Origin: an uncultured virus (IMG/VR IMGVR_UViG_3300021960_000053)
Lineage: Duplodnaviria; Heunggongvirae; Uroviricota; Caudoviricetes
IMG/VR virus record: IMGVR_UViG_3300021960_000053
Coordinates: 52,968 to 72,967 of that record
DNA length: 20,000 nucleotides
Reading direction: 5' to 3' (one strand)
Positions 5,763-11,502 of this stretch are shown piece after piece. Each line of letters begins with the position of its first letter. Position 1 is the first letter of the stretch. A program made the position numbers and the translations under genes. The notes below the pieces were generated by a model. That model ran no database searches. It saw nothing but the letters and a program-made list of their open reading frames with translations, and was not told the origin of the DNA.

Positions 5763-5874
5763 CTTCAGTACCTTTTTCTAAATCACGAAGTCTTTTACGC
5801 CAGTATTCATTTTCATTATCAGTCTCACGCTCTTCTGCTTCATCAAACATGTAGTCTGGATAAGGTTGGGTCAT
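5740..5874 (-). CDS. Small charged hypothetical protein (44 aa)
   Basis: Manual translation MTQPYPDYMFDEAEERETDNENEYWRKRLRDLEKGTEDENRNHH*; ATGA overlap with g55 stop; fills the g55-g47 gap. Confidence 0.7.
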   Translation of the reverse strand: MTQPYPDYMFDEAEERETDNENEYWRKRLRDLEKGTEDENRNHH

Positions 5875-6344
5875 CGACTTGTCCTGTACTGAATGTTGTC
5901 TTTGATCGTATTATAGTCACTTGCCATGCCGTTTGCACCATCTTCAACAACCATTACTTGATCATAACCAGTTCTCTCAATAATTTTGGTTTTGATTTCT
6001 AACTGCTTCTTCTCCTTTTGGATTCTACGAAGGAAAGCATAGTAAATGATCTGAGTAAAATATGCAAACGGGTTATTAGATTTCTCAGGATCAAAATTAT
6101 GTATGTACTGAACGCAGTTCTCAATTCCATCACCGATCATATCCTCTCTGAACATGTAGTTCACGAAGTTGGGTTTGTATGAAAGGTGTGTTGCGATCTT
6201 CAAAAAACAATCGCCCAAATAGTTACTGATCGGAGGTGGTGGAGTACCCTTTTCCTTTGCTTTCCTGCACTTGATGCGATACTCCACCATTGCGTCTAGC
6301 AAGTCTTTGTTATTTACATAGTGCTCCGATCTCTTTTTGGGCAT
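5871..6344 (-). CDS. g55: gp55 late-transcription sigma factor
   Basis: HYVNNK, YKPNFVNYMFREDMIGDGIENC, NFDPEKSNNPFAYFTQIIYYAFLRRIQKEKKQ. Confidence 0.96.
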   Translation of the reverse strand: MPKKRSEHYVNNKDLLDAMVEYRIKCRKAKEKGTPPPPISNYLGDCFLKIATHLSYKPNFVNYMFREDMIGDGIENCVQYIHNFDPEKSNNPFAYFTQIIYYAFLRRIQKEKKQLEIKTKIIERTGYDQVMVVEDGANGMASDYNTIKDNIQYRTSR

Positions 6345-6367: not shown

Positions 6368-6396
6368 ATTATAGCACAGCTTGACAAAGGTGTCAC
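6368..6396 (-). promoter_or_regulatory. sigma70-type promoter of g55
   Basis: GTGACA-N17-TATAAT with extended -10 (TGcTATAAT). Confidence 0.75.
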
Positions 6397-6409
6397 TCAT
6401 GAGTAGAAT
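6381..6409 (+). promoter_or_regulatory. Divergent/antisense sigma70-type promoter
   Basis: TTGACA(6381-6386)-N17-TAGAAT(6404-6409), 11/12 match to consensus. Confidence 0.6.
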
Positions 6410-6458: not shown

Positions 6459-6896
6459 TTATACATGAGTAGCAATCCCTGCTTTCGGGTCTTGCTCCAG
6501 TTTAAATAGAGATTCTAATTTTTCTTTTGCTTTTGTTACATTACCTAAGTAACCCATCTTTTCGGAGGGTCTTACTCTTTTACCACCTACGGATCTGATT
6601 CCACCACTTGTTCTATCTTCAGCTTGATCAATAAGATAGTTAATGTAGTAGTCAACCATATCATTGTCTTCATCAACTTCTGTCATTGTGATGACTTTAT
6701 CTTTATCGATGAAGAAAAACTGATCGTTTGGAACATGCATCCATGGTTCCACTCTAATATAAGAACCCCTAGGTCCATGAACAGGTTGAATACAAACTGG
6801 ATCTTGCAGGATCAGGGTATGTTCTTCTGCAGAAGTAATTGCAAATAACTCTTCTCCAGAGACCAACTTTATACTTGCGTAAAACTCTTCAGTCAT
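6459..6896 (-). CDS. Conserved hypothetical protein between uvsW and g55 (possible Sm-like beta fold)
   Basis: 145 aa; IKLVSGEELF, LILQDP, PWM motifs; ATGA overlap with uvsW stop. Confidence 0.8.
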   Translation of the reverse strand: MTEEFYASIKLVSGEELFAITSAEEHTLILQDPVCIQPVHGPRGSYIRVEPWMHVPNDQFFFIDKDKVITMTEVDEDNDMVDYYINYLIDQAEDRTSGGIRSVGGKRVRPSEKMGYLGNVTKAKEKLESLFKLEQDPKAGIATHV

Positions 6897-8793: not shown

Positions 8794-9324
8794 TTAAGTT
8801 TCCACTTCAATGGTATAGAACAGATACTTAAAAGTAACGGTTGCTGTAAAGTATGTATAATCCTGATCAGTGGCAGTAAATTCAAGAGCACTCAAAGAAA
8901 TAGGAAACAAGTCTCTGAACTTTACGCGAGCACTAACATTAAAATTACTGTTTAGGATAGCGAGTGTTCCGTCACTAAATTGCTCTTTAACATCCTTTTG
9001 TCCCTGAGCATTGGTAATTAATTCTTGAAACTCAGAAACACTCTCTGGATATCCAAGACCATAAATCCAGTTATGAATCTCTAAGTAATTTTCCAAGTCT
9101 TCATCAACAATAAACTGGAGAGTCAGATCTTCAAACTGAATATTATCCCCAGGCAAATCAATTGCTTTGAGATAATTTCCTACCTTAATATTTCCAAGTT
9201 GGATACCAGGAATCTTTGCACTGTTGGAAAAGAAATCAACCTTTGGTGTCTTTACAATGTTAAATTTAAATCCAACTGGCGACAAGTAATTCTTGTTCGC
9301 AATTTGTTTACCTAAAAATGACAT
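8794..9324 (-). CDS. g3: gp3 tail tube terminator / tail completion protein
   Basis: NYLSPVGFKF, IPGI, PGD, FIVDEDLENYLEIHNW, FPISLS, ATVTFKY; position downstream of g23. Confidence 0.88.
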   Translation of the reverse strand: MSFLGKQIANKNYLSPVGFKFNIVKTPKVDFFSNSAKIPGIQLGNIKVGNYLKAIDLPGDNIQFEDLTLQFIVDEDLENYLEIHNWIYGLGYPESVSEFQELITNAQGQKDVKEQFSDGTLAILNSNFNVSARVKFRDLFPISLSALEFTATDQDYTYFTATVTFKYLFYTIEVET

Positions 9325-9326
9325 GA

Positions 9327-9971
9327 TTACCTCGCTGTTCTAACATATACTTTTCTCTTACCATATTGTGTAGGTGTGAGATTTGGATCACCAGTGACCT
9401 GTCTTGCAGTAGCTCTCATTAAATCATAACTAGTGCTTTTGTTAACTTCACCTGCAGGACCAAAATTACCAGTATCCCTCACAGTTGCATTTGTAACTCT
9501 GGTATTTGCACCAGTTGGTTTTTGTGTGAACTGTAACTTGGTTCCAAAATCTTGAGACGGAGTTCCTGCCCATGTACCTGCAGGAACTTCATTTGCTTTA
9601 TATCTGTAAGGAACTGCAACGCCAGTTGTTGCACCTGTAAATGGAGTTCCGTCAGCAGTTCTTTGGACTTTATCTGCGCCAGTGTTATATCCTTGTGAAG
9701 TTGTATCTTTTGGACCGTAAGAACTGGTACTGACAGGTTTCCATCCATATCTTTCTGCTTCTGCGGGAGTATGTGCCCTTGGAGTAAACTTATTAGTGCT
9801 CTTATCTAATACTCCAGGTTTATAATTTTTATATGCTAAAACATTTGTATTAGCAGGTTTTGGTTTTGTTGCAGCAGATCTGTCAGCACCAGATATTTTA
9901 TTCCATGCCCAAGTAAATGGGTTTCCTTCTACCAGAGCAGCATCTTCTCTGAATTGACGAAAGGTTTTCAT
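9327..9971 (-). CDS. Putative virion internal protein: capsid-targeting-like leader plus RlpA-like double-psi beta-barrel domain
   Basis: N-terminal MKTFRQFRE; C-terminal SSYGP..TADGTPF..VAVP..FGTKL..VRDTGNF..SYDL..GKRKVYV; own late promoter. Confidence 0.7.
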   Translation of the reverse strand: MKTFRQFREDAALVEGNPFTWAWNKISGADRSAATKPKPANTNVLAYKNYKPGVLDKSTNKFTPRAHTPAEAERYGWKPVSTSSYGPKDTTSQGYNTGADKVQRTADGTPFTGATTGVAVPYRYKANEVPAGTWAGTPSQDFGTKLQFTQKPTGANTRVTNATVRDTGNFGPAGEVNKSTSYDLMRATARQVTGDPNLTPTQYGKRKVYVRTAR

Positions 9972-9992
9972 CTACACTAGGCGTCTTAATTA

Positions 9993-10000
9993 TATTTAGA
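9993..10000 (-). promoter_or_regulatory. T4-type late promoter (TCTAAATA) for the 214-aa gene and g3
   Basis: Immediately after g23 terminator, 21 nt upstream of the ATG. Confidence 0.7.
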
Positions 10001-10001
10001 T

Positions 10002-10028
10002 AAAAAAAGAGGGTCCTTTCGGACCCTC
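10002..10028 (-). terminator. Rho-independent terminator downstream of g23
   Basis: GAGGGTCC-GAAA-GGACCCTC followed by T7. Confidence 0.93.
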
Positions 10029-10049
10029 GGAGACTTCCTTCACACGGAT
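10002..10049 (-). ncRNA. Candidate ~47-nt small RNA
   Basis: Bounded by a sigma70-like promoter (10054-10082) and the terminator; contains GUGUGAAGGAAGU. Confidence 0.4.
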
Positions 10050-10053
10050 GTCT

Positions 10054-10082
10054 ATTATAACATCACATGAGGTTCTTAACAA
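10054..10082 (-). promoter_or_regulatory. sigma70-type promoter straddling the g23 stop codon
   Basis: TTGTTA-N17-TATAAT with extended -10 (TGtTATAAT). Confidence 0.55.
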
Positions 10083-11502
10083 CAGTACGCTGGTAGTAGC
10101 GGTTGCTGTTGGAGGTGATACGACCAAGACCCTGGTTAGAAACATTACCCTCAGCGAAGGGGTTGGAGACAAGACCATAACGGGTCTTGAAGCCAATCTT
10201 GGGCTGGAAGCTGTTCTCACCGACGGCACGAACCATCTGGAGGGGAACATAGGGGCAGTAGAAGAGACCAGCGTCATAGGGGCTGGAACCCTTGTAACCG
10301 ACAACATAGTACTGGTTAGCAGCACTGTTGGCAGAGAAGGGATCGATATAGACTCTGTACTTACCGTTGATAGTACCAGCGAAGGTATTACCAGTGTCGT
10401 CAACCTGCAGGTTGGCGTTCAGAGCGGGGGTGTAATCGAGTACACCAGCCATGGTCAGAGCAGAGGCGACATCAGCGGAGGTCATGATGATGTTGCCCTT
10501 TCCTCTACGAGTTCTTTGGGCGATTCTGTTAGCATCTCTCTCGATGTTGAACAGCAGACCCTTGAACTTCTCAACAGACCAACGACCGTTGGAGTCAACA
10601 TCCAGGTCGAAGAATCCTTGGTTAGCAACATTGACCTGAGAACCAGCTTCAGCGGTCTTATAGATGGTTCTGATGACTTCGCGGTTGATCTCAGCCAGGA
10701 TCTCGCTGGACAGGATGTTAGCGAGTTCGGCTTCAGCGTTCAGACCGTGGATAGCACGGAGGTCCTGAGCCAGCTCCATGCTGTACTCAGCTTTCAGAGC
10801 ACGAGACTTAGCGGTAACGGTGACCTTCTCGATCGAGAATGCCATCTCGTTGAAGTTGGTGCCGTTGCCGTCACCCAGAGCTTCAGAGTCGCCAGTTGCG
10901 AAACCTTGACCAACGCTGTACTGAGCTTGAACAGCATCAGAAGCGGTGCCTTCCAGGATACCAGGGTTGGTGCCACGCTGAGTAGCGGTAGAACCGAAAC
11001 CAACAGCCAGACCGTCATCGGTAGCAGCGGTGTAGTCACCTTGGGTAGCAGTGCCACCAGCGACATTGGCAGAGAAGGCAGAATCGGGCTCGTCGAAGAA
11101 GGCTTCGGTGCCAGACTGGTTGGTGTAGCGGGAGCGCATTGCGAAGATCAGTCCAGTAGGACCGTTCATCGGTTGAACACCAGCGAGTTCATAAGCAACC
11201 AGATTCGGCATAGAGCGACGAATCAGGGAGATCAGAACGGGGTCGAAACCAGCGGTAGGACCAGCAGCAGCAGAACCAGAACCGAAAGCACCAGAAGCAC
11301 CAGCAGCGTTACCAGAGTTGGTGGGGGCTTCGGTCAGCATGCCATTGCCATTCTCAAAAGCATGCTGCTCACGCAGGAAACGCTCTTGGTTCTCAAGCAG
11401 GATAGCGGTGGTAGCACGACGGTGAGAATCCCTAATCGGATCTACACCCTCGGCATCGAGAAGGGGAGACCACTTCTCAATTAATTGTTGTGCGTTGTAC
11501 AT
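10063..11502 (-). CDS. g23: gp23 major capsid protein
   Basis: KWSPLL, LLENQE, GFDPVLISLIRRSMP, GVQPMNGPTGLIFAMRSRY, AKSRALKAEYS, FYCPYVPL, FQPKIGFKTRYG; likely gp21 cleavage at LTE|A. Confidence 0.99.
   Translation of the reverse strand: MYNAQQLIEKWSPLLDAEGVDPIRDSHRRATTAILLENQERFLREQHAFENGNGMLTEAPTNSGNAAGASGAFGSGSAAAGPTAGFDPVLISLIRRSMPNLVAYELAGVQPMNGPTGLIFAMRSRYTNQSGTEAFFDEPDSAFSANVAGGTATQGDYTAATDDGLAVGFGSTATQRGTNPGILEGTASDAVQAQYSVGQGFATGDSEALGDGNGTNFNEMAFSIEKVTVTAKSRALKAEYSMELAQDLRAIHGLNAEAELANILSSEILAEINREVIRTIYKTAEAGSQVNVANQGFFDLDVDSNGRWSVEKFKGLLFNIERDANRIAQRTRRGKGNIIMTSADVASALTMAGVLDYTPALNANLQVDDTGNTFAGTINGKYRVYIDPFSANSAANQYYVVGYKGSSPYDAGLFYCPYVPLQMVRAVGENSFQPKIGFKTRYGLVSNPFAEGNVSNQGLGRITSNSNRYYQRTVVKNLM

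What the first reader, a model, noticed from the sequence alone, without database searches (positions are those of the whole stretch)
10002..10082. Candidate phage small RNA behind g23, near-complementary to the cyanobacterial Yfr1 sRNA motif
Seen: a host-type promoter (TTGTTA-N17-TATAAT, extended TG) sits across the g23 stop, only ~25 nt before the g23 terminator stem, so it could only make a ~47-nt non-coding RNA: (A)UCCGUGUGAAGGAAGUCUCCGAGGGUCCGAAAGGACCCUCUUUUUUU. Its core GUGUGAAGGAAGU (10033-10045) is the reverse complement of ACUUCCUUCACAC. Knowledge: the conserved cyanobacterial sRNA Yfr1 carries the single-stranded motif ACUCCUCACAC, and host Yfr2 RNAs pair with it; the phage core would pair with that motif with two bulged As. 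Seen: in the long g23 mRNA the core folds into AGACAUCC-GUGUGAA-GGAAGUCU, while the short transcript loses the AGAC arm. Inference: a phage-encoded sponge or mimic for a Yfr1-family host sRNA, or an anti-sRNA site on the capsid mRNA.
Basis: partly seen in the sequence, partly recalled or inferred. Interest (0 to 1): 0.75.

Follow-up and report, generated by a model that had tools for sequence, protein, structure and literature searches.

The report
Cyanophage small RNA antisense to tRNA-Val
Behind the capsid gene of this marine cyanophage sits a tiny promoter-to-terminator RNA gene whose conserved front end is the exact mirror of the anticodon arm of the host's GUG-reading valine tRNA, which suggests that these viruses act directly on one host tRNA.

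Summary
TTGTTA-N17-TGtTATAAT (10082-10054), the core (10045-10033) and the best terminator in the window (10028-10002) all lie on the minus strand behind g23.

The unit is not chance. The 15-mer TCCGTGTGAAGGAAG has at least 120 exact hits in IMG/VR. About 100 of them lie 3-8 nt after a -10 box, directly after a phage tRNA 3' end, or in a tRNA leader, and are followed by a hairpin of variable sequence.

The Yfr1 reading is not the best one. The seed is the exact reverse complement of positions 25-41 of host tRNA-Val(CAC). That 17-mer is present in 86 of 151 genomes of the host family.

- A rarer tRNA allele is matched exactly by a variant phage seed.
- Five of 9 Synechococcus myophages carry the motif, against 0 of 5 Prochlorococcus myophages.
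- All five carriers encode their own tRNA-Val(UAC).
- GUG is the fourth most used host codon but rank 49 of 61 in the phage.

Expression and mechanism are untested. An anti-tRNA small RNA is the best reading. No description was found in print.

The parts
10063..11502 (-). g23 major capsid protein gene. Its last codons and its TGA stop supply the -35 box and the TG of the extended -10 box.
   Evidence: Pfam Gp23 E 9e-146; sequence read.
10077..10082 (-). -35-like hexamer TTGTTA (4 of 6), inside the g23 coding sequence.
10054..10062 (-). Extended -10 box TGtTATAAT. The TG comes from the g23 stop codon.
   Evidence: Of 120 IMG/VR loci holding the 15-mer, 63 have a -10 box matching 5-6 of 6 positions 3-8 nt upstream of the seed.
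10033..10048 (-). Seed UCCGUGUGAAGGAAGU at the predicted 5' end of the RNA. It is antisense to host tRNA-Val(CAC) positions 26-41. Most relatives continue with G, which gives 17 nt (positions 25-41); this window has C at 10032.
   Evidence: Exact 17-mer in a host tRNA-Val(CAC). The 15-mer was the search term. The next base is T in 73 of 80 unique modules and the next two are TG in 55 of 80.
10029..10032 (-). Short spacer (CUCC) between the seed and the hairpin.
   Evidence: In relatives the hairpin starts 0-5 nt after the 15-mer in 67 of 80 cases.
10002..10028 (-). Intrinsic terminator and 3' hairpin of the small RNA: an 8-bp stem (6 GC pairs), a GAAA loop and U7. It also ends the g23 mRNA.
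   Evidence: top terminator-like site. Hairpins after the seed in 80 unique relatives have a mean MFE of -14.6 and a mean z of -4.1, with sequences that differ.
9993..9999 (-). CTAAATA, a late-promoter-like box for the next gene (ATG at 9971). It is not part of the small RNA but bounds it.
   Evidence: The same box follows the terminator in most relatives. The T4 late consensus is recalled, not tested.

Best explanation
This is a small RNA gene of about 45-47 nt that is spread among T4-like phages of Synechococcus. The RNA has two parts. The first is an invariant single-stranded 5' seed, (A)UCCGUGUGAAGGAAGU(G). The second is a GC-rich 3' hairpin of free sequence, which here doubles as the g23 terminator.

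The seed is the exact antisense of positions 25/26-41 of the host's tRNA-Val(CAC). That stretch covers the 5' strand of the anticodon stem, the whole anticodon loop UUCACAC, and three bases of the 3' strand.

Inferred mechanism: the seed's central GUGUGAA meets the anticodon loop as a 7-bp loop-loop contact. Pairing then spreads into the stem, and the GUG-specific tRNA is taken out of translation. This could be by sequestration or by making the duplex a nuclease substrate.

This would hit the host, for which GUG is one of its commonest codons. It would largely spare the phage, whose genes avoid GUG and which carries its own tRNA-Val(UAC) with a different anticodon arm.

Shown: the anatomy, the conservation, the exact complementarity, the matching variant alleles, the codon and tRNA context.

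Inferred: that the RNA is made, that it binds the tRNA in the cell, and what binding does.
For: 1. Conservation and position.
- The 120 hits sort as follows: 63 lie 3-8 nt after a -10 box matching 5-6 of 6 positions. 14 lie in leaders before tRNA-Gly(UCC) or tRNA-Leu(UAG); 11 of these have a promoter. 17 start at the base after a phage tRNA (16 Thr-UGU, 1 Asn-GUU). 6 lie after TAAATA. 5 are inside tRNA-Val(CAC) genes on the other strand. 15 are other, random or truncated.
- So three routes (promoter, tRNA 3' trailer, tRNA 5' leader) put the seed at or near an RNA 5' end.
- Two unrelated control 17-mers gave 9 and 13 hits, which sets the background.

2. A hairpin follows in 80 unique modules. 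The mean z is -4.1, and 65 of 80 have z < -2. Stems differ and loops are often GAAA or TTCG.

3. The element is single-copy, with at most 1 mismatch, in Syn9, S-SM1, S-SSM4, S-PRM1 and Syn33. It sits at different loci and is unannotated. 43 phage records cover at least 80% of the 48-nt query.

4. Target.
- The only exact match in a complete marine Synechococcus genome is in tRNA-Val(CAC); the next best has 2 mismatches.
- The exact 17-mer is in 86 of 151 genomes of that family (my tally of the table).
- All 10 exact loci examined are tRNA-Val(CAC).

5. Covariation in trans.
- A second tRNA-Val(CAC) allele differs at positions 26 and 28; 3 of 3 such loci are confirmed as tRNA-Val(CAC).
- Three of the 9 IMG/VR hits to its reverse complement are full modules: TTGACC-N17-TATAAT-N7-seed-hairpin-tRNA-Gly.
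- One contig (L375) has a seed that matches a third allele type, with the 29:41 pair flipped; it is followed by a hairpin and tRNA-Leu.

6. Host range.
- The motif is absent, allowing up to 3 mismatches, from 5 of 5 Prochlorococcus myophages.
- A 1.67-Mb AT-rich genome of the family has tRNA-Val GAC and UAC but no CAC.

7. Codons.
- GTG is used 35.0 times per 1000 codons in the host sample (rank 4 of 61). In the phage record it is used 7.2 times per 1000 (rank 49).
- g23 has 0 GTG among its 28 Val codons, and six structural genes have 5 of 191.
- The codons that are more host-biased (GCC, GGC, CGC) share their tRNAs with the U-ending codons the phage prefers (wobble rule from general knowledge, not tested).

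8. All 5 motif-bearing named phages encode tRNA-Val(UAC). These differ from the target at 2-11 of the 17 positions.

9. Energetics. The cofold ddG is -17.3 kcal/mol against -1.4 +/- 2.0 for shuffled seeds (0 of 300 reach it). This is as strong as the validated host pair Yfr2-Yfr1, at -16.5.
Against: - There is no direct evidence that the short RNA exists. Metatranscriptome data were contigs only. They show the g23 3' end running into the seed and say nothing about ends, strand or a separate small RNA.
- The Syn9 TSS study (Doron 2016) is not held in the library.
- Mature tRNAs are folded and modified, and ViennaRNA ignores both. Cofold energies did not separate the two alleles: B-seed with tRNA-A gave -18.5, and with tRNA-B -16.3.
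- The element is not universal. 4 of 9 Synechococcus-isolated myophages lack it (S-PM2, S-RSM4, Syn1, S-SSM7). Only 5 of 76 unbiased g23-downstream regions hold it within 400 nt.
- The host-range contrast, 5 of 9 against 0 of 5, is weak (Fisher P about 0.06, worked out by hand).
- tRNA-Val(UAC) also occurs in Syn1, which has no motif.
- The covariation rests on one lineage of 3 similar contigs plus one single contig.
- No seeds were found for two further tRNA alleles.
- Codon bias of GC-rich hosts against AT-rich phages holds for many codons, so that argument is circumstantial.
- The window's own seed has C, not G, at 10032, so its complementarity is 16 nt.
Confidence: 0.5

Rival explanations
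1. One reading: the RNA is a sponge or mimic for the host sRNA Yfr1 (or Yfr10). It would act like a phage copy of Yfr2, whose 5' motif pairs with Yfr1.
For: - The seed core resembles the Cyano-1/Yfr2 5' consensus UGUGUGAGGAGU, with two extra As, and like it lies at an sRNA 5' end.
- Predicted pairing with a real host Yfr1 gives ddG -10.3, better than 292 of 300 shuffled seeds.
- Yfr2-Yfr1 sponging is experimentally shown in Prochlorococcus (PMC6778093, abstract and passages).
Against: - Pairing needs two bulges, although a perfect complement would be easy to evolve.
- The invariant As, the flanking UCC and the G after the core are unexplained by Yfr1 and fully explained by tRNA-Val(CAC).
- Variant seeds follow tRNA alleles although the Yfr1 motif is invariant.
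- There is no Cyano-1 hit in the phage record and no Rfam hit on the module.
- The motif is absent from 5 of 5 Prochlorococcus myophages.
Confidence: 0.1
2. The RNA does bind tRNA-Val(CAC), but not to inactivate it. For example, it could sense tRNA level or charging to tune termination and read-through at the adjacent hairpin. It could shield the tRNA from a host anticodon nuclease, or use it as a handle for some other reaction.
For: - The same complementarity evidence as the main reading.
- The seed sits 0-5 nt before the hairpin in most modules.
- In this window it also lies in the 3'UTR of every g23 mRNA.
- tRNA-cleaving defences and phage counter-tRNAs are known (PMC11555353 and PMC11464382, seen in a search listing only).
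Against: - No alternative (antiterminator) structure is evident.
- In tRNA-leader contexts the hairpin has no U-run, so it is not a terminator there.
- 17 bp of pairing must open the anticodon stem, which blocks decoding whatever else it does.
- No candidate Val-specific nuclease is known to me.
Confidence: 0.15
3. The identity matters at the DNA level. The 17 bp shared with the host tRNA-Val gene would be a recombination or attachment site, or a protein-binding site, and not an RNA seed.
For: - tRNA genes, including their anticodon-loop region, are classical integration sites (general knowledge, recalled).
- Sequence alone cannot tell DNA identity from RNA complementarity.
- Some IMG/VR hits lie in what looks like truncated tRNA sequence.
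Against: - The site always has the same orientation and a fixed distance to a -10 box or to a tRNA 3' end.
- A hairpin always follows it.
- Identity stops at 17 bp and covers the 5' side of the anticodon arm. It does not cover the 3' part that an attP would need to restore the tRNA.
- No PF00589 integrase is found in 0 of 8 module-bearing phage records, while the control rings in 14 of 14 genomes. Serine recombinases were not tested.
Confidence: 0.07
4. There is nothing special here: an ordinary g23 terminator with a chance promoter-like match in AT-rich 3'UTR sequence.
For: - Promoter-like sites are not enriched in the window (45 against 37.9 +/- 6.2).
- 71 of 76 related g23-downstream regions have only a spacer, a terminator and a late promoter.
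Against: - The seed is invariant across phages whose g23 DNA is only about 71-78% identical.
- It recurs at other loci and in tRNA operons.
- It matches a host tRNA exactly. A chance 17-mer hit in 2.6 Mb has odds of about 3 in 10,000 (own arithmetic).
Confidence: 0.02

Closest known systems
Yfr2 / Cyano-1 sRNA family of cyanobacteria (Rfam RF01701), which sponges Yfr1 and Yfr10
   Same: A short, abundant-type sRNA with a conserved single-stranded motif at its very 5' end and a terminator hairpin. The motif (UGUGUGAGGAGU) looks like the phage seed core. It acts by pairing with another small stable RNA rather than with an mRNA (PMC6778093).
   Different: - There is no covariance-model hit.
- The phage seed has two extra As and different flanks.
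- Its perfect partner is a tRNA, not Yfr1.
- The phage RNA lacks the central GGAAACA stem-loop of the Cyano-1 model.
Phage- or prophage-encoded base-pairing small RNAs, including the anti-sRNA sponges AgvB/AsxR of EHEC (recalled from memory, not read here)
   Same: A mobile-element sRNA that base-pairs with a host non-coding RNA to disable it.
   Different: Their targets are Hfq-bound regulatory sRNAs. Here the target would be a tRNA of the translation machinery, in hosts that largely lack Hfq (the latter per the abstract of PMC2518516).
3'ETS-leuZ of E. coli, a sponge RNA released from a tRNA precursor (recalled, not read here)
   Same: In 17 of 120 loci the seed begins at the first base after a phage tRNA. 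In 14 it lies in a tRNA leader. tRNA processing would therefore release the same small RNA.
   Different: 3'ETS-leuZ sponges sRNAs (RyhB, RybB), and its sequence is a by-product of a host tRNA operon. Here the module also has promoters of its own and is antisense to a tRNA.
Herpesvirus saimiri HSUR1, which pairs with and destroys host miR-27 (recalled, not read here)
   Same: A viral small RNA whose conserved seed is antisense to one abundant host small RNA.
   Different: It is a eukaryotic virus with an Sm-class RNA, and its target is a microRNA.
Phage manipulation of the tRNA pool by encoded tRNAs (Syn9's six tRNAs, PMC11726456, passages read; phage tRNAs against tRNA-cleaving defences, search listing)
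   Same: It acts on decoding and sits in or next to phage tRNA clusters. It co-occurs with a phage tRNA-Val(UAC).
   Different: Those systems add tRNAs. This one would subtract a host tRNA, and through RNA-RNA pairing.

Membership tests
Yfr2 / Cyano-1 (RF01701) | A match to the family covariance model at the gathering score. | tested here: not met
   No hit in the whole phage record. No hit at E <= 10 in window 9000-11000. No hit on 8 further module loci. The model does find a host copy (42.7 bits).
Yfr2 / Cyano-1 (RF01701) | A 5' motif that is perfectly complementary to ACUCCUCACAC of Yfr1. | tested here: not met
   The phage core GUGUGAAGGAAGU needs two bulged As. The ddG is -10.3, against -16.5 for host Yfr2-Yfr1.
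Trans-acting antisense small RNA (seed plus terminator hairpin) | Its own promoter or a processing site that places the seed at the RNA 5' end. | tested here: met
   In silico only. Of 120 loci, 63 have a -10 box 3-8 nt upstream, 6 have TAAATA, 17 start directly after a tRNA 3' end and 14 are tRNA leaders. The window has TGtTATAAT 5 nt before the seed.
Trans-acting antisense small RNA (seed plus terminator hairpin) | A conserved seed with extended complementarity to a defined target, and changes that follow the target. | tested here: met
   An exact 17-nt complement of tRNA-Val(CAC). A variant seed matches a variant allele, and L375 matches a third allele type.
Trans-acting antisense small RNA (seed plus terminator hairpin) | The RNA is made, and it binds its target in the cell. 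| not testable with these tools
   Only assembled contigs of metatranscriptomes were available. Doron 2016 is not held in the library.
Intrinsic (Rho-independent) terminator | A GC-rich stem-loop followed by a U-run. | tested here: met
   8 bp with 6 GC pairs, a GAAA loop and T7; it is the top site of the scan.
tRNA-gene attachment site of an integrating element | A recombinase is encoded, and the identity runs to the 3' end of the tRNA so that the gene is restored. | tested here: not met
   PF00589 is found in 0 of 8 module-bearing records. The identity is limited to tRNA positions 25-41. Serine recombinases were not tested.
T-box-type tRNA-sensing leader | A specifier codon in a large structured leader, with a terminator/antiterminator switch that reads the tRNA acceptor end. 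| tested here: not met
   The unit is about 47 nt long and no alternative structure is predicted. There is no Rfam hit. Pairing covers 17 nt, not just a codon.

The most novel reading that the evidence does not exclude
Cyanophages of Synechococcus run a codon-selective host shut-off by RNA. A 45-nt phage sRNA, made from its own promoter or cut out of phage tRNA precursors, base-pairs with the anticodon arm of the host's GUG-only tRNA-Val(CAC) and removes it from translation. The phage reads its few GUG codons, and its GUA codons, with its own seed-resistant tRNA-Val(UAC). This would be the first known sRNA that targets a mature tRNA as a weapon. It would also be a new layer of the phage-host contest over the tRNA pool.
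Probability: 0.35. Interest if true: 0.9.

Novelty: new variant of a known kind. Interest (0 to 1): 0.8.

Why it matters
Phages are known to add tRNAs, and hosts are known to cut tRNAs in defence. An RNA that a virus uses to take one host tRNA out of play by base-pairing has not been described in the papers I could search. The element is small and unannotated in every record seen. It is common in phages of one of the ocean's main primary producers. It comes with a precise, testable prediction: which tRNA, which 17 bases, which codon. If true, it links three known facts in one mechanism: the AT-rich codon usage of these phages, their tRNA genes and host shut-off. It would also give a simple design rule for RNA tools that silence a single tRNA. 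If the tRNA is bound for another purpose, the exact and co-varying complementarity still needs an explanation.

Tried and rejected
- **Rfam.** Nothing was found on the module in the window or in 8 related loci. Only chance-level hits and the flanking tRNAs appeared.
- **Literature.** The 12-mers occur only as unrelated primers or siRNAs in 17 papers. Searches for a phage sRNA against a host tRNA, and for cyanophage, sRNA and tRNA-Val together, found nothing relevant. Doron 2016 (Syn9 transcription start sites) is not held under its DOI or PMC id, and its supplements may bear on the Syn9 copy at 119,421.
- **Expression.** 14 RNA runs hold 13-33% of the sampled words of window 9900-10300. Laying 4 of them gave contigs only. 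These are deep over the g23 coding sequence. One contig spans 9986-10207, and three contigs from three runs stop at 10035-10038 inside the seed. That is most simply where assembly graphs branch, because the hairpins differ between strains. It says nothing about RNA ends or strand.
- **Other seeds.** Seeds for further tRNA-Val(CAC) alleles were sought. The 3 hits for allele C are all tRNA-like reverse strands. Of the 27 hits for alleles D/E, only L375 is module-like. A 2-mismatch 'variant' seen in small genomes is not a tRNA, and its reverse complement gave 13 hits, none in a module.
- **Analogous module in Prochlorococcus phages.** Behind g23 of P-SSM2, P-SSM4, P-HM1, P-HM2 and P-RSM4 there is only a spacer and a terminator.
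- **Phage Sm-like ORF (6459-6896) as a dedicated chaperone.** It is present in 14 of 14 myophages, with or without the motif, so there is no specific link.
- **Energy as a test of allele specificity.** Cofold did not discriminate between the alleles.
- **Earlier notes of this scan.** There are none for this genome. One note from another genome gives the same reading. It is not independent evidence.
Full report
**What is in the window**

The window is part of a 72,967-base record of a T4-like cyanomyovirus. The minus strand carries, in order:
- terminase, sheath, tube, portal, prohead protease and scaffold genes;
- g23, the major capsid gene (10063-11502);
- two ORFs without a Pfam family;
- uvsY and uvsW;
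- a weakly Sm-like ORF and a gp55-like sigma factor;
- gp47- and gp46-type nuclease subunits.

The nearest named phage over 9700-10400 is S-PRM1, at 71.5% DNA identity.

**The observation**

- TTGTTA at 10082-10077, then 17 nt;
- TG-t-TATAAT at 10062-10054, where the TG belongs to the g23 stop codon;
- five bases, then TCCGTGTGAAGGAAGT at 10048-10033;
- CUCC, then the stem-loop GAGGGTCC-GAAA-GGACCCTC at 10028-10009;
- seven Ts at 10008-10002;
- CTAAATA at 9999-9993, 21 nt before the ATG of the next gene.

The pattern scan lists the promoter (10 of 12, with TG) and ranks the hairpin first among terminator-like sites. The same scan shows that promoter-like matches are no more frequent in the window than in shuffles (45 against 37.9 +/- 6.2). 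The promoter match alone therefore proves nothing.

In the 60-nt 3'UTR context the core sits in the loop of AGAC-A-UCC/GGA-A-GUCU. In a transcript starting at 10049 or 10047 the seven bases GUGUGAA are unpaired with probability at least 0.96. With 13 further coding bases a different pairing is preferred.

**The unit is a conserved module**

I oriented all 120 on the motif and classified them with ARAGORN and simple rules.

| Context of the 15-mer | Loci (of 120) |
|---|---|
| -10 hexamer matching TATAAT at 5-6 of 6 positions, 3-8 nt upstream (many with a perfect TTGACA 17 nt further up) | 63 |
| Leader of a phage tRNA (12 Gly-UCC, 2 Leu-UAG); 11 have such a promoter | 14 |
| Starts at the first base after a phage tRNA (16 Thr-UGU, 1 Asn-GUU) | 17 |
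| Lies 4-6 nt after TAAATA | 6 |
| Inside a tRNA-Val(CAC) gene, on the opposite strand | 5 |
| Random GC-rich sequence, truncated pieces or weak -10 boxes | 15 |

Two unrelated 17-mers searched in the same way gave 9 and 13 hits. That is the background of this collection, and the module hits lie far above it.

After the 15-mer the next base is T in 73 of 80 unique sequences, and the next two bases are TG in 55 of 80. A hairpin then follows whose sequence differs from phage to phage. Its mean MFE is -14.6 kcal/mol and its mean z against shuffles is -4.1, with 65 of 80 below -2. The commonest loops are GAAA (18) and TTCG (12). Before that count I dropped the 15 non-module loci, duplicates and truncated pieces.

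Where a tRNA follows, the hairpin has no U-run. It is therefore part of the RNA and not only a terminator.

Three different routes put the same 16-17 bases at or within a base or two of an RNA 5' end:
- the unit's own promoter;
- the 3' trailer of a tRNA;
- the 5' leader of a tRNA.

That is the signature of a small RNA with a 5' seed.

**Named phages**

- The 48-nt unit finds 43 phage records covering at least 80% of it. All are Synechococcus phages or 'cyanophage' records, and none has an annotation at the site.
- Whole-record pattern searches show exactly one copy, with at most one mismatch, in each of five phages. In Syn9 it is at 119,421-119,437, between gp134 and gp135, after CATAAATAATAA. 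In S-SM1 it is at 115,071. In S-SSM4 it is at 156,033, behind a photosystem II gene, after TTGACA-N17-TATAAT. In S-PRM1 it is behind g23, after CTAAATA. Syn33 also has one.
- It is missing, allowing up to 3 mismatches, from S-RSM4 and S-SSM7. S-PM2 has only one 3-mismatch hit, at the level of the reversed-pattern controls. Syn1 has only a 2-mismatch hit, which is its own tRNA-Val(UAC).
- It is missing from all five Prochlorococcus myophages tested: P-SSM2, P-SSM4, P-HM1, P-HM2 and P-RSM4. Behind g23 those phages have only a spacer and a terminator.
- An unbiased sample was drawn by g23 protein similarity: 80 IMG/VR loci, of which 76 had enough downstream sequence. Only 5 hold the seed within 400 nt of the stop.

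The module is therefore a widespread but accessory, movable unit. It is not a fixed part of the g23 3' end.

**What the seed matches**

I obtained a handle on a complete marine Synechococcus genome through the phage's own psbA and searched it for the 17-mer with up to three mismatches. There is one exact match. It lies on the opposite strand of a 72-nt tRNA-Val with anticodon CAC (Rfam tRNA 65.6 bits; ARAGORN).

The seed is the reverse complement of CACUUCCUUCACACGGA. This covers positions 25-26, the 5' strand of the anticodon stem (27-31), the whole loop UUCACAC (32-38) and G39-A41. The next best hit has two mismatches, and by its sequence it lies in the anticodon arm of another tRNA.

In 151 genomes of that GTDB family, the exact 17-mer occurs in 86 (my tally of the table; the tool's own tally is 96 of 151 within two mismatches).

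| Genome size | Genomes with the exact 17-mer |
|---|---|
| 2.0 Mb or more | 79 of 86 |
| Under 2.0 Mb | 7 of 65 |

All ten exact loci I looked at are tRNA-Val(CAC). One 1.67-Mb single-contig genome, with about 30% G+C in the one 601-nt locus I measured, has tRNA-Val GAC and UAC but no CAC. I read 28 regions covering 31 of its 40 tRNA matches; the 9 left out were 82-89 nt long and so not valine tRNAs.

In a 61-genome sample of the phylum, the same allele also occurs in large cyanobacterial genomes. Four other alleles exist.

**Covariation in trans**

Three genomes of the family carry a second allele, CGCAUCCUUCACACGGA, confirmed as tRNA-Val(CAC) in 3 of 3. It differs from the common allele at positions 26 and 28. 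Its reverse complement has 9 IMG/VR hits:
- Three are complete modules of the tRNA-leader type: tRNA-Thr, TTGACC-N17-TATAAT, seven bases, variant seed, hairpin, tRNA-Gly(UCC).
- Three read like the reverse strand of tRNA sequence, though ARAGORN called no gene in those 317-nt pieces.
- Three look random.

A further contig, L375, has a seed in which the first base and one inner base are both changed. These changes correspond to a flipped 29:41 stem pair seen in two other alleles. The seed is followed by a 10-bp hairpin and tRNA-Leu(UAA).

The Yfr1 motif, by contrast, is described as perfectly conserved in the 31 cyanobacterial Yfr1 candidates aligned by Voss et al. (PMC2190773, abstract and passages).

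The weaknesses are these:
- The three variant modules are close relatives, so they count as one event.
- L375 is a single contig without a clear -10 box.
- No module-like seeds were found for allele C.

**Yfr1 compared with the tRNA**

I took real host RNAs from the same genome: Yfr1 (RF01116, 67.8 bits) and a Yfr2/Cyano-1 copy (42.7 bits).

| Pair | Cofold ddG (kcal/mol) | Shuffled seeds |
|---|---|---|
| Window RNA with tRNA-Val(CAC) | -17.3 | -1.4 +/- 2.0; 0 of 300 reach it |
| Window RNA with Yfr1 | -10.3 | -4.6 +/- 2.6; 8 of 300 reach it |
| Host Yfr2 with Yfr1 (experimentally supported) | -16.5 | not run |

The Yfr1 pairing is thus better than chance, but it is not what the sequence is tuned for. 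The likeness is still worth noting. The Cyano-1 consensus begins uugUGUGUGAGGAGu, and the Yfr1 motif is the tRNA arm minus two Us.

The energies ignore tRNA tertiary structure and modifications. They also did not separate the two alleles.

**Why this tRNA**

I compared a crude ORF sample of the host (109 ORFs, 40,067 codons, from eight 20-kb pieces) with the phage record (72 ORFs, 21,070 codons).
- GTG is used 35.0 times per 1000 codons in the host. That is rank 4 of 61 and half of all Val codons.
- GTG is used 7.2 times per 1000 in the phage. That is rank 49 and 12% of Val codons.
- g23 has none among its 28 Val codons, and six structural genes together have 5 of 191.
- GTG is third of all codons both by host/phage ratio (4.9) and by difference.
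- The codons that beat it (GCC, GGC, CGC, and CGA, which is rare in both) end in C or A. By the wobble rules (general knowledge) the abundant C-ending ones share their tRNAs with the U-ending codons the phage prefers.
- CTG, the other abundant G-ending codon, is still used 14.2 times per 1000 by the phage.

All five named phages with the motif encode a tRNA-Val(UAC). In S-SSM4 it is one of only three tRNAs. These tRNAs differ from the target stretch at 2-11 of the 17 positions. Syn1, which has no motif, also has one, so the link is not exclusive.

The six Syn9 tRNAs agree with those listed by Zborowsky et al. 2025 (PMC11726456, passages). That paper also shows that tRNA supply can decide the outcome of Syn9 infection. 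It does not mention this RNA in the passages I searched.

**How it most likely works**

This part is inference. The RNA is made early from host-type promoters, late from TAAATA promoters, or by processing of phage tRNA precursors. Its 5' seed is the complement of a hairpin, so it can itself present GUGUGAA in a small loop. That loop meets the anticodon loop, and pairing then extends to 16-17 bp and opens the anticodon stem.

A tRNA held in this way cannot decode. The duplex may also be cut. A 5'-monophosphate seed, such as tRNA processing would leave, is known in enterobacteria to activate RNase E on the paired target (recalled). Host RNase E is induced in cyanophage infection (abstract of PMC9692554 in the listing; passage of PMC2518516).

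The result would be slower translation of GUG-rich host messages, while phage messages, poor in GUG and served by the phage tRNA-Val(UAC), go on.

**Rivals**

- The tRNA could be bound for another purpose. That cannot be excluded.
- A DNA-level role for the shared 17 bp is unlikely. The orientation is fixed, the distance to promoters and tRNA ends is fixed, the identity does not reach the 3' part of the tRNA, and there is no tyrosine integrase in 0 of 8 module-bearing records.

**What is missing**

There is no direct evidence of the small RNA. Metatranscriptome runs hold parts of the stretch, but only as assembled contigs, which cannot show ends or strand. The Syn9 TSS paper could not be read.

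The module matches no Rfam family. I found no paper describing it in three searches. It is a lead of the same kind, not independent support.

**Verdict**

- The idea of a phage small RNA is strongly supported by comparative evidence.
- The proposed partner, Yfr1, is replaced by tRNA-Val(CAC).
- The function is a reasoned guess.

Noticed in passing
L383-L462 (g23-downstream regions of relatives); compare window 10049-10062: In 30 of 71 relatives that lack the seed, the spacer between the g23 stop and its terminator holds TTCACA within 35 nt of the stop; shuffling predicts 0.7. This hexamer is the sense form of the tRNA-Val anticodon-loop core and the complement of the seed's UGUGAA. In several modules (L011, L043, L081, L086, L106) it directly precedes the seed, where it could mask the seed in the long g23 mRNA.
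   Followed up: partly
window 6459-6896 (-): A 145-aa ORF between uvsW and the gp55-like sigma factor has a weak Pfam Sm_like match (PF16243, E 1e-5, 26 bits, below the cut-off of 29.4). Homologues are present in 14 of 14 named cyanomyophages, with or without the small RNA. It could be a phage RNA chaperone, but it is not specifically tied to this RNA.
   Followed up: partly
L254 (P-RSM4) and L257 (P-HM1), about 60-260 nt after the g23 stop: Directly after the g23 terminator, both Prochlorococcus phages share a roughly 200-nt non-coding stretch that starts after a TATAGT/TATAAT box and looks structured. It was not scanned against Rfam.
   Followed up: no
L237:1497-1565 and L239:1481-1537 (host) compared with L215:1478-1549: The ultraconserved Yfr1 motif ACUCCUCACAC equals the tRNA-Val(CAC) arm ACUUCCUUCACAC minus two Us. 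The Yfr2 5' motif is correspondingly close to the phage seed. Whether host Yfr2 touches tRNA-Val, or whether the likeness is chance, was not examined. Cofold of Yfr2 with the tRNA gave only -6.9.
   Followed up: partly
window 6368-6409: Two of the three best promoter-like sites of the window overlap back to back. TTGACA-17-TAGAAT is on the plus strand. GTGACA-17-TATAAT, with TG, is on the minus strand, just upstream of the gp55-like ORF 5871-6344.
   Followed up: no
L013:978-1034 (-): A glutamine-riboswitch (glnA RNA) match just under the gathering score (34.4 against 35 bits) lies about 400 nt from the module in one IMG/VR contig.
   Followed up: no
L296, L301 (IMG/VR): The variant 17-mer lies in sequence that reads like a tRNA-Val reverse strand, including its 3' half and D-arm. 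ARAGORN calls no gene in these pieces, and in L296 a second copy of the arm sequence follows. These may be tRNA fragments at integration junctions of other viruses.
   Followed up: no
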